1,046 nucleotides of DNA. Source: Escherichia coli. GTDB lineage: Bacteria > Pseudomonadota > Gammaproteobacteria > Enterobacterales > Enterobacteriaceae. The DNA is taken from the NCBI RefSeq assembly GCF_003334305.1, contig NZ_QOWS01000063.1; one strand, written 5' to 3'. The notes under the pieces were generated by a model. That model was not told the DNA's origin. It worked only from the letters and a program-made list of their open reading frames with translations, and made no database searches. Positions 1-1,046 of the stretch are shown one piece after another (the first letter of the stretch is position 1; each line of letters begins with the position of its first letter). Position numbers and translations under genes: made by a program.

Positions 1-92
1 GGCGCGCCAATTCTTACACCTGCCGAACCCTGGACAATGGGACCGCCATACTGAGTCATATCTCCCTGACGCGCCGCTGGTTTTCCGCTCAT
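1..92 (-). CDS. rhs: Rhs-family protein with N-terminal PAAR domain, first 30 codons only (3'-partial; continues beyond the left edge). Likely a T6SS cargo toxin carried on the VgrG tip.
   Basis: Seen in sequence: ATG at 92..90 (minus strand) opens a frame reading MSGKPAARQGDMTQYGGPIVQGSAGVRIGA(P) with no stop before the window edge. It contains a literal P-A-A-R tetrapeptide at residues 5-8 followed by a GG-x-I-x-x-GS-x-x-V-x-IG pattern typical of PAAR-domain starts. From memory this N-terminus matches that of Escherichia coli Rhs core proteins; the specific paralogue cannot be assigned from 30 residues. It lies 66 bp downstream of the vgrG stop on the same strand. This ORF is absent from the supplied track because it is short and runs off the edge. 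Confidence 0.85.
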   Translation of the reverse strand, partial: MSGKPAARQGDMTQYGGPIVQGSAGVRIGA

Positions 93-99
93 GATTCAA

Positions 100-105
100 T
101 TCCTT
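100..105 (-). promoter_or_regulatory. Shine-Dalgarno sequence for the rhs start codon
   Basis: Minus-strand AAGGAA (plus-strand ttcctt at 100-105) sits 7 nt upstream of the ATG at 92..90 (spacer ATTGAAT), a good match in composition and spacing to an enterobacterial ribosome-binding site. Confidence 0.55.
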
Positions 106-158
106 CTTCTGTTTATTTTTAATGCTTGTTTGTTACTGAATACCGAACAGGTACGGGA

Positions 159-1046
159 TCAGTACTCTCTCATATCCGGCGTATCCTGCTTTTCATCAGG
201 GGTCTTCGGTGGGGATTTCGAGGCTGCACAGTTCCAGTTAATCAACAGTGAGTCACCATTAACCTGCTCCTTACCCTGCAAATGAATTTTTGTGCCGTTG
301 AGAAAAATTTGTCCGTCCTTCGTCAGCACCAGCCTTGCCTTACCACAGCAGAGCTCCAGATGCTCACCGGCGGAGTAAATCGCGGTCTGCCCGGTATCAT
401 CCTTTTTCGTTTTACCAACGGTGAAGGTAACGTTATTTCCGACTTTGACGTCATAACCCAGCCCGACCCTCAACGATTTATGCAAACCGATCTGCGAGGA
501 CTGCATCAGAGCCACCGAAGTGTTCATAATGCCACCTACCGTCGTCTGGTACGCCACGCCCACGGTCAGCGCACGAACAAGTCCAATCGTTTCCACCTGA
601 ACAGAACCCACGTTAATGATCTGGTTACTGCCCACCGTCTCTATCTGGTTAACGCCCACCGTCTGTATCTGATTGTTGGTAACCGCAATCATCTGATTGT
701 TGCCAATGGTCTCAGCATGGTTGTTTATCACATCCGTGGTGCGGTTATTCAGCACCTCGGTGTTCATGTTCTTCTGCGCGTGGATGTAGACCTGTTCTTT
801 CCCTGTCGCATCGTCAAACTTCAGTTCATTAAACCCGCTGCCCTTATAGGTTTTCGAACGAATGGTCATCTGCGTCTTTGTTCCCGGCAGGCTGCCGGGT
901 GTGCGGTTTTCCTGGTGGTAGGTACGCCCCATAATAATCGGCTGGTCCGGATCGCCGTTGAGGAAGTCCACAATCACCTCCTGACCCACACGCGGTATCG
1001 CCAGGTGGCCAAAACCGGTGCCTGCCCACGCCTGTGCCACACGGAT
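159..1046 (-). CDS. vgrG: T6SS spike protein VgrG, C-terminal portion (5'-partial; N-terminus lies beyond the right edge). Stop codon TGA at 159-161.
   Basis: Seen in sequence: the 293-aa ORF 159..1040 stays open to the window edge (codons 1041-1046 read I-R in frame; codon 1038-1040 is GTG, so the track's M is an internal Val). The translation contains the VgrG/gp5 OB-fold region motif (R)VAQAWAGTGFG...PRVGQEVIVDFLNGDPDQPIIMGRTY, then regularly spaced Val-Gly octapeptide repeats (TTDVINNH/AETIGNNQ/MIAVTNNQ/IQTVGVNQ/IETVGSNQ/IINVGSVQ/VETIGLVR) typical of the gp5-like beta-helix, then a ~100-aa C-terminal region ending ...SKSPPKTPDEKQDTPDMREY*. Family assignment is from recalled knowledge of VgrG/Rhs-associated vgr proteins; no search was run. 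Confidence 0.92.
   Translation of the reverse strand: MRVAQAWAGTGFGHLAIPRVGQEVIVDFLNGDPDQPIIMGRTYHQENRTPGSLPGTKTQMTIRSKTYKGSGFNELKFDDATGKEQVYIHAQKNMNTEVLNNRTTDVINNHAETIGNNQMIAVTNNQIQTVGVNQIETVGSNQIINVGSVQVETIGLVRALTVGVAYQTTVGGIMNTSVALMQSSQIGLHKSLRVGLGYDVKVGNNVTFTVGKTKKDDTGQTAIYSAGEHLELCCGKARLVLTKDGQIFLNGTKIHLQGKEQVNGDSLLINWNCAASKSPPKTPDEKQDTPDMREY
573..740 (-). repeat. Intragenic 24-nt (8-codon) tandem repeats encoding the VgrG gp5-like beta-helix, seven units
   Basis: Seen in sequence: consecutive 24-nt units at 573-596, 597-620, 621-644, 645-668, 669-692, 693-716 and 717-740 each encode an octapeptide ending in Q/H/R with V/I-G spacing. Units 621-644 (ctggttactgcccaccgtctctat) and 645-668 (ctggttaacgcccaccgtctgtat) match at 21 of 24 positions. 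This is a coding repeat inside vgrG, not an independent element. Confidence 0.7.

What the first reader, a model, noticed from the sequence alone, without database searches (positions are those of the whole stretch)
573..740. Near-identical 24-nt tandem repeats inside vgrG
Seven in-phase 24-nt units encode the beta-helix, and two adjacent units are 21/24 identical. Such repeats can drive unit gain or loss by slippage or recombination (changing spike length) and can collapse or misassemble in short-read assemblies. This is expected biology for VgrG rather than a novelty, but worth checking if repeat number looks odd against relatives.
Basis: seen in the sequence. Interest (0 to 1): 0.2.

Follow-up and report, generated by a model that had tools for sequence, protein, structure and literature searches.

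The report
Ordinary VgrG spike repeats, rarely length-variable
The 24-base repeats are the normal eight-amino-acid repeats that build the needle of an E. coli type VI secretion spike protein (VgrG); this window has the usual repeat number, and only about 7 of roughly 2,760 complete E. coli genomes have gained or lost whole repeats here, so the finding is real but ordinary.

Summary
Observation confirmed. Window 619-642 and 643-666 are 21/24 identical. They sit in a 24-nt periodic tract that is longer than reported: 15 in-phase octapeptide units (396-755), not 7.

The window is E. coli chromosome, minus strand. It holds the 3' 888 nt of vgrG, a 66-nt spacer and the start of an Rhs core gene, in the yncH-vgrG-rhs island. 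The repeats encode the gp5-like triple-stranded beta-helix of the spike.

The pair is more alike than the protein requires (synonymous-codon shuffle P=0.0034). The rest of the array shows no DNA-level homogenisation.

Among 5,426 complete E. coli genomes, about 2,750 records carry this exact length. At the same locus I found:
- two different +1-unit alleles, both predicted misalignment products of the 21/24 pair;
- a -1-unit allele in four genomes, deleted between a 12-nt perfect repeat in the neighbouring pair;
- a -10-unit in-frame allele in one genome.

The T6SS-island paralogue and one Salmonella homologue have +1 unit at the same spot. Most other genera share the window's spacing.

This is known biology and of low interest.

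The parts
159..1046 (-). 3' part of vgrG (last 295 codons plus stop at 159-161). The gene runs off the right end of the window. The full gene is 702 aa in E. coli A7.
   Evidence: ORF and translation. 100% match to an annotated VgrG CDS. TIGR03361 scores 627.5 bits against a cut-off of 186 on the full-length protein.
918..1046 (-). End of the OB-fold (gp5 N-terminal-like) domain of VgrG.
   Evidence: Pfam Phage_base_V, E=7.5e-10, fragment residues 1-43. These residues align to solved VgrG structures 7q5p, 4mtk and 9mlp.
540..869 (-). Gp5_trimer_C match, the beta-helix trimerisation domain.
   Evidence: Pfam PF22178, E=1.1e-26, fragment residues 60-169, with a weaker second match at residues 169-214.
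396..755 (-). Array of 15 in-phase 24-nt units. They encode the octapeptides V/I-G-x-N-x-x-x-T, from VLNNRTTD to VGKTKKDD.
   Evidence: Register table. Lag-24 self-match of 47.6% against a background of about 27%.
619..666 (-). The near-identical pair, 619-642 and 643-666 (21/24). In coding sense they are QIETVGSN and QIQTVGVN. Both natural +1-unit alleles arose here.
   Evidence: Synonymous-codon shuffle P=0.0034. L008 and L009 insertions match the simulated misalignment products.
667..702 (-). 12-nt perfect direct repeat ATCTGATTGTTG at 667-678 and 691-702. These are the end-points of the natural -24-nt (-1 unit) allele.
   Evidence: Lag-24 exact runs. Alignment of the SC516 allele L006 shows IGNNQMIA+VTNNQIQT becoming IGNNQIQT. 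The allele is present in 4 complete genomes.
513..767 (-). Imperfect 15-nt direct repeat at 513-527 and 753-767, with an 8-nt perfect core GTGTTCAT at 520-527 and 760-767. The copies are 240 nt (10 units) apart. These are the end-points of the natural -10-unit in-frame allele.
   Evidence: the repeat finder family D3. E. coli EC50 allele of 622 aa with junction KNMNT|SVALMQ. The same junction occurs in draft-assembly proteins P0023-P0025.
162..395 (-). C-terminal end of VgrG after the regular repeats (TGQTAIYSAGEHLELCCGKARLVLTKDG... and a polar tail). It is presumably the distal beta-prism end and platform plus a flexible tail.
   Evidence: Aligns to the last strands of solved VgrGs: query 205-268 against 7q5p 549-611 and 4mtk 543-601. 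The motif L-x-L-x-C-G is conserved in homologues. The function assignment is inferred.
93..158 (-). 66-nt spacer between vgrG and rhs, with an AAGGA Shine-Dalgarno-like motif about 8 nt before the rhs ATG.
   Evidence: Read directly from the sequence. No Rfam family matches.
1..92 (-). Start of the Rhs core protein gene (MSGKPAARQGDMTQYGGPIVQGSAGVRIGA...). The gene runs off the left end of the window.
   Evidence: Translation. Annotated as 'RHS element core protein'. In its first 200 aa DUF6531 matches at E=1.7e-19, while the PAAR motif is only weak at E=0.058.

Best explanation
The tract is the coding sequence of the gp5-like triple-stranded beta-helix (needle) of an E. coli VgrG spike protein. 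This is the orphan yncH-vgrG-rhs island, probably the gene called vgrG2/z2262 in EHEC.

Each 24-nt unit encodes one octapeptide, which is one beta-strand plus turn on one face of the trimeric prism. The DNA periodicity is therefore mainly a by-product of protein architecture.

One pair of units (619-666) is also unusually alike at synonymous sites. That points to a fairly recent duplication or conversion.

Short direct repeats lying one or more helical periods apart occasionally misalign, by replication slippage or unequal recombination. The result is in-frame gain or loss of whole units. Such changes are structurally tolerated because adding a unit to all three chains only lengthens the prism by about one strand spacing (about 4.8 A) and preserves three-fold symmetry.

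Shown here: the gene identity, the periodicity, the excess nucleotide similarity, and the existence and exact junctions of +1, -1 and -10 unit alleles.

Inferred: the slippage or recombination mechanism itself, the structural tolerance, and any effect on function.
For: Identity: the window is 100% identical to annotated VgrG plus RHS genes in E. coli A7, lying between yncH and pptA. Pfam gives Phage_base_V and Gp5_trimer_C. TIGR03361 scores 627 bits. There are sequence matches to solved VgrG spikes 7q5p, 4mtk, 9mlp and 8qja.

Periodicity: 15 in-phase octapeptides and lag-24 identity of 47.6%.

Excess similarity: with the protein held fixed and synonymous codons shuffled, the best adjacent identity is usually 17-18, and P(>=21)=0.0034. 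Array-wide codon identity at lag-8 identical residues is 17 of 39 against 18.5 expected, so only this pair is homogenised.

Natural indels at the same locus among 5,426 complete genomes:
- +24 nt in O111:H8 strain 8E (VGVNQIET twice) and in SC422 (VGVNQIET VGSNQIET). These equal the simulated crossover products at positions 7-18 and 20-24 of the pair.
- -24 nt in SC516, M159-1, M171-1 and PEC148, between the 12-nt perfect repeat.
- -240 nt in EC50, between GTGTTCAT repeats. It is in frame and gives 622 aa.

Older events: the T6SS-island paralogue has +1 unit at the same spot, and so does Salmonella homologue P0012. Citrobacter, Enterobacter, S. bongori and others keep the window's spacing.

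Geometry: the gp5 prism is 110 A for 23 strands, and each octapeptide gives one strand at 75 degrees to the axis plus a kink (PMC3004832).
Against: Events are rare, about 7 of roughly 2,760 ortholog-bearing records. The tract is therefore not a hypermutable locus.

The two +1 alleles are singletons, and one (SC422) also carries a frameshift elsewhere in the gene. Sequencing or assembly artefacts cannot be excluded for those two.

No collapse of the 21/24 pair itself was found.

P=0.0034 for the pair is suggestive, not overwhelming.

The beta-helix fold was not confirmed by a model. The AlphaFold2 monomer had mean pLDDT 48.

Nothing shows that the length variants still function. In EC50 the downstream rhs is cut by IS26.
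Confidence: 0.92

Rival explanations
1. This is pure protein-driven periodicity. The 21/24 identity is a coincidence of similar octapeptides and codon bias, and the repeats have no DNA-level dynamics.
For: Across the array, codon identity at lag-8 identical residues is no higher than expected (17 against 18.5). About 99.7% of orthologs have the same length.
Against: The synonymous-codon shuffle gives P=0.0034 for >=21/24. Natural +1 alleles are exactly the misalignment products of this pair. The -1 and -10 junctions lie in exact direct repeats spaced by multiples of 24 nt.
Confidence: 0.05
2. The length variants seen in databases are sequencing or assembly artefacts, and the true gene is invariant.
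For: The two +1 alleles are singletons. SC422's gene also has a 1-nt frameshift. P0023-P0025 come from 1-2 kb draft contigs.
Against: The -1 allele is in 4 complete genomes from different hosts and carries linked substitutions. The -10 allele occurs both in a complete genome and in independent draft assemblies. A +1 unit is fixed in the T6SS-island paralogue across many genomes and in a Salmonella homologue.
Confidence: 0.1
3. This is an adaptive contingency locus. Repeat-number switching tunes spike length or cargo fit and is under selection.
For: Indels are always in frame and in whole units. Different vgrG paralogues have fixed different unit numbers.
Against: There are only 2.2 near-identical copies. 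The variant frequency is about 0.25%. There is no array-wide homogenisation. The -10 allele sits in a decaying locus. In-frame whole-unit bias is expected simply because the direct repeats are spaced by 24 nt.
Confidence: 0.05

Closest known systems
Bacteriophage T4 gp5 C-terminal beta-helix (VXGXXXXX octapeptide repeats)
   Same: It has an eight-residue repeat with V and G at fixed positions, and the window matches Pfam Gp5_trimer_C. It forms a three-start intertwined triangular prism in which each octapeptide is one strand plus a kink (PMC3004832).
   Different: This is a bacterial T6SS protein, not a phage protein. The consensus here is V/I-G-x-N-Q-x-x-T, with 15 recognisable units against 11 in gp5. 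There is no lysozyme domain. The trimeric fold here is inferred from sequence, not modelled.
Solved T6SS VgrG spikes (P. aeruginosa VgrG1 4mtk/4uhv; 7q5p; 9mlp; VgrG-Rhs 8qja)
   Same: The OB-fold and the first helix strands align at E=1e-36 to 1e-38. The last strands (query 205-268) align to the distal end of these spikes.
   Different: In the phmmer alignment, query residues about 140-204 have no counterpart in 4mtk or 7q5p. The E. coli helix therefore appears longer by several octapeptides. This is an approximate reading from the local alignments.
EHEC O157:H7 vgrG2 (z2262)-rhsE orphan island and vgrG3 (z0267) in the T6SS-2 island
   Same: O157:H7 genomes carry window 480-800 at 100% identity. 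The literature describes three VgrGs with conserved N-termini and divergent C-termini, two of them followed by rhs genes (PMC7216683). The hcp/tssB-linked paralogue (L002, L007) fits vgrG3.
   Different: I inferred the assignment of this window to z2262 from gene order (yncH...rhs). I did not check it against the EDL933 record. The paper does not discuss repeat-number variation.
Slipped-strand or unequal-crossover variable-number tandem repeats in bacterial surface-protein genes
   Same: Whole units are gained or lost in frame, with junctions in direct repeats.
   Different: There are only 2.2 copies with high DNA identity. Variation is rare (about 0.25%) and there is no evidence of switching or selection.

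Membership tests
T6SS spike protein VgrG/TssI | gp27-like plus gp5-OB core matching the curated family model above its cut-off | tested here: met
   TIGR03361 scores 627.5 bits (cut-off 186.35) and TIGR01646 scores 446.9 bits (cut-off 121.8) on the 702-aa protein of L001, whose 3' end is 100% identical to the window.
T6SS spike protein VgrG/TssI | OB-fold (Phage_base_V) followed by a gp5-type C-terminal trimerisation beta-helix | tested here: met
   PF04717 E=7.5e-10 and PF22178 E=1.1e-26, in the expected order.
T6SS spike protein VgrG/TssI | Valine-glycine octapeptide periodicity in the C-terminal region | tested here: met
   There are 15 consecutive 8-residue units starting with V or I, 10 of them with G at position 2. 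Lag-24 nt identity is 47.6%.
T6SS spike protein VgrG/TssI | Genomic linkage to T6SS cargo or tip genes (PAAR, Rhs, Hcp) | tested here: met
   An Rhs core gene starts 66 nt downstream. The paralogue lies next to hcp and tssB. The PAAR motif in the Rhs N-terminus is only weak, E=0.058.
T6SS spike protein VgrG/TssI | Trimeric intertwined beta-helix in three dimensions | tested here: inconclusive
   The AlphaFold2 monomer model had mean pLDDT 48 and pTM 0.28, which is unusable. Only sequence alignment to solved spikes is available.
T6SS spike protein VgrG/TssI | Secretion by, and requirement for, a T6SS | not testable with these tools
   This needs experiments.
Hypervariable tandem-repeat (contingency / VNTR) locus | Several repeat copies of high DNA identity | tested here: not met
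   TRF finds only 2.2 copies at 89%. The other units are 5-16/24 identical to one another. There is no excess codon identity across the array.
Hypervariable tandem-repeat (contingency / VNTR) locus | Frequent copy-number differences among close relatives | tested here: not met
   About 2,753 records have >=95% identity and the same length. Only 4 (-1), 2 (+1) and 1 (-10) variants were found.

The most novel reading that the evidence does not exclude
The VgrG needle of this E. coli island is a naturally length-polymorphic module, with -10, -1, 0 and +1 octapeptide units. Unit number would be functionally tuned, for example to fit the cognate Rhs/PAAR cargo or the target envelope. Direct repeats spaced one helical period apart would act as a built-in length-adjustment mechanism.
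Probability: 0.07. Interest if true: 0.35.

Novelty: already known. Interest (0 to 1): 0.13.

Why it matters
It matters little beyond housekeeping. The window is correctly assembled and carries the standard repeat number, so no correction or follow-up is needed.

There is a small practical point. vgrG alleles that differ by exactly 24 or 240 nt do exist in E. coli, so annotation or typing pipelines should not treat such length differences automatically as errors.

There is also a small conceptual point. Whole-octapeptide indels appear to be tolerated in a trimeric beta-helix. That is consistent with its geometry and could be used to engineer spike length.

Tried and rejected
- AlphaFold2 on the 295-aa fragment with a 26-sequence alignment gave mean pLDDT 48, so the model is unusable. 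A monomer cannot form the intertwined trimer. I therefore ran no fold search.
- The Rfam scan of the window found nothing, so there is no structured RNA alternative.
- Plus-strand ORFs are short and overlap the well-supported minus-strand genes. I rejected them.
- A search with a hypothetical collapse of 619-642 and 643-666 found no such allele in complete genomes.
- The first search for the -10-unit allele was uninformative, because normal alleles matched as two joined pieces with equal rank. Repeating it with max_evalue 1e-100 solved this.
- Three of the 9 records in the 90-95% identity band remain unassigned. They may be partial matches or further length variants away from the central units.
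- A literature search for repeat-number variation in VgrG found nothing relevant.
- The homologous-protein output listed only proteins up to about 400 aa, mostly fragments. It was adequate for counting units but not for full-length comparison.
- I checked the junction of the truncated vgrG in SMN013SH2 (L003) against the A7 Rhs gene. It did not map there, so I did not establish its mechanism.

Full report
WHAT THE WINDOW IS

The 1,046-nt window is E. coli chromosomal DNA, 100% identical to strain A7 (NZ_CP028767.1). It is present at >=80% coverage in 2,713 of 5,426 complete E. coli genomes. Everything of interest is on the minus strand.
- An ORF enters from the right edge and stops at 159-161. 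It gives 295 codons in the window.
- A 66-nt spacer follows.
- A second gene starts at 92 and runs off the left edge. Its product begins MSGKPAARQGDMTQYGG....

In strain A7 these are annotated as 'type VI secretion system tip protein VgrG' (702 aa) and 'RHS element core protein'. They lie between yncH and pptA.

The full-length protein scores 627.5 bits on NCBIfam TIGR03361 against a cut-off of 186. The window fragment matches Pfam Phage_base_V at residues 1-43 (E=7.5e-10) and Gp5_trimer_C at residues 60-169 (E=1.1e-26). It also aligns to solved VgrG spikes 7q5p, 4mtk/4uhv, 9mlp and 8qja at E=1e-26 to 1e-38.

The Rhs N-terminus has a strong DUF6531 match and only a weak PAAR-motif match, E=0.058. 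No Rfam family matches the window.

By gene order this is probably the orphan vgrG2 (z2262)-rhsE island described in EHEC (PMC7216683). That assignment is my inference.

CHECKING THE OBSERVATION

The near-identical pair is real.
- TRF reports 619-671, period 24, 2.2 copies, 89% matches.
- The repeat finder gives 619-642 against 643-666 at 21/24, plus a 71% copy at 691-714.
- In 2,000 base shuffles the best adjacent-24 identity never exceeded 17.

The periodicity is in phase with the minus-strand frame. When the protein is printed in blocks of eight, 15 consecutive units begin with V or I, from VLNNRTTD at 732-755 to VGKTKKDD at 396-419. Lag-24 nucleotide identity across 396-755 is 47.6%, against 23-32% at other multiples of three.

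IS THE PAIR MORE ALIKE THAN THE PROTEIN REQUIRES?

Yes, modestly. I held the protein fixed and shuffled synonymous codons within the gene. The best adjacent identity was usually 17-18 of 24 and reached 21 in only 0.34% of 5,000 trials.

The array as a whole shows no DNA-level homogenisation. At residues identical eight positions apart, 17 of 39 codons are identical against 18.5 expected.

The array is therefore old and diverged. Only the units at 619-666 look like a relatively recent duplication or conversion.

I used window 480-800 as the query against the complete genomes. This gave 1,139 records at >=99% identity and 1,614 at 95-99%. Every full-length hit sampled in those two identity bands had the same 321-nt length.

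Four kinds of exception emerged, all at the same yncH-vgrG-rhs locus.

(a) A -24-nt allele of 694 aa occurs in SC516, M159-1, M171-1 and PEC148. The alignment shows IGNNQMIA+VTNNQIQT fused to IGNNQIQT. The deletion lies between the 12-nt perfect direct repeat ATCTGATTGTTG at 667-678 and 691-702. It carries linked substitutions, so it is an inherited allele.

(b) Two +24-nt alleles exist. O111:H8 strain 8E (710 aa) has VGVNQIET twice. SC422 has VGVNQIET VGSNQIET. I simulated misalignment of the 21/24 pair by one period. It predicts exactly these two products, for exchange at positions 7-18 and 20-24 of the unit. Both are singletons, and SC422's gene also has a frameshift, so artefact cannot be excluded for these two.

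(c) A -240-nt allele of 622 aa, in frame and lacking exactly 10 units, occurs in strain EC50. Its junction is KNMNT|SVALMQ, inside the 8-nt repeat GTGTTCAT at 520-527 and 760-767. The same junction occurs in draft-assembly proteins P0023-P0025. In EC50 the downstream rhs is cut by IS26, so this locus may be decaying.

(d) No genome has the hypothetical collapse of 619-642 and 643-666.

Older events also exist. The hcp/tssB-linked paralogue is 78-83% identical and has one extra unit at the same spot...QIQN IGVNQIQT VGVNQVET VGSNQ.... A Salmonella enterica homologue (P0012) has the same extra unit. Homologues from Citrobacter, Enterobacter, S. bongori and a 53%-identical metagenomic protein keep the window's spacing of 133 residues from the YIHAQKN anchor to L-x-L-x-C-G.

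The window therefore carries the modal and probably ancestral unit number.

MECHANISM

Established knowledge comes from T4 gp5 (PMC3004832). Each octapeptide forms one beta-strand, running at 75 degrees to the axis, plus a kink. Three chains intertwine into a triangular prism, 110 A long for 23 strands.

My arithmetic from those figures gives about 4.8 A per strand. By inference, adding or removing one unit in each of the three identical chains changes the needle length by about 4.8 A. It also rotates the distal part by 120 degrees, which a three-fold symmetric trimer maps onto itself. That would explain why whole-unit indels leave an intact reading frame and a plausible protein.

The DNA events have junctions in short direct repeats spaced by 24 or 240 nt. 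This fits replication slippage or unequal recombination. Which of the two operates, and whether the variants function, was not tested.

The frequency is about 7 in 2,760, which is that of ordinary short direct repeats and not of a contingency locus.

ASSEMBLY CONCERN

The window is identical to many independently finished genomes, so it is not misassembled. A 48-nt near-repeat is shorter than typical reads, so collapse seems unlikely. That is inference and was not tested.

Public data do contain thousands of fragmentary VgrG proteins on contigs of about 1 kb, for example P0002 with 1,519 members and P0068 with 1,527. The likelier cause is that genomes hold 2-4 vgrG copies (median 3 places per genome). 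Their N-terminal parts, including window 736-1046, are about 93-97% identical (H23 and H24).

VERDICT

The feature is the namesake valine-glycine repeat region of VgrG. It is already known, with a standard repeat number, and of low interest.

The only mildly new item is the documented set of natural whole-unit length alleles (+1, -1, -10), whose junctions fall exactly where the direct repeats predict.

Noticed in passing
window 520-527 and 760-767; L010 4780-6648: An in-frame allele lacking exactly 10 octapeptide units (240 nt; 622 aa) exists in E. coli EC50 and in draft-assembly proteins P0023-P0025. Its junction lies in the 8-nt repeat GTGTTCAT. In EC50 the rhs gene downstream is truncated by IS26.
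   Followed up: yes
window 642/643; L003 2960-3040: In strain SMN013SH2 the vgrG gene is cut exactly at the boundary between the two near-identical units and joined to an internal Rhs fragment, with an IS1 upstream. The left flank did not map to the A7 Rhs gene, so the event was not reconstructed.
   Followed up: partly
proteins P0028, P0038, P0043, P0049 (relatives of window 159-1046): Public databases hold other rearranged derivatives of this gene. They include a 95-aa internal deletion (VGS|KARLVL), an in-frame VgrG-Rhs fusion after VGVAYQTTV, a deletion joining the gp27 domain to the C-terminal cap, and a NADAR-domain protein carrying the last 60 or so residues of this VgrG.
   Followed up: no
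window 736-1046: This part is shared at about 93-97% identity with paralogous vgrG genes whose C-termini are unrelated, for example L004, which is followed by a DcrB-related gene and an Rhs. The mosaic boundary falls at the first octapeptide units, which suggests modular exchange of C-terminal cargo-specific parts.
   Followed up: partly
window 1-92 (minus strand); L001 5493-6092: The Rhs protein begins with K-P-A-A-R, but Pfam gives only a weak PAAR-motif match (E=0.058). DUF6531 is strong (E=1.7e-19). This may be a divergent or split PAAR-like tip domain.
   Followed up: partly
proteins P0002, P0006, P0007, P0068: Thousands of 'partial' VgrG sequences sit on contigs of about 1 kb. This shows that short-read assemblies commonly break inside vgrG. 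The likely cause is 2-4 near-identical paralogues per genome rather than the 24-nt repeats.
   Followed up: no
window 306-347 (residues LELCCGKARLVLTKDG): The motif L-x-L-x-C-G-x-A-R-L-V-L/M-T-K/Q-D-G at the distal end of the helix is strongly conserved in homologues down to 53% identity. It aligns to the last strands of solved VgrGs and is possibly the tip-binding platform.
   Followed up: no
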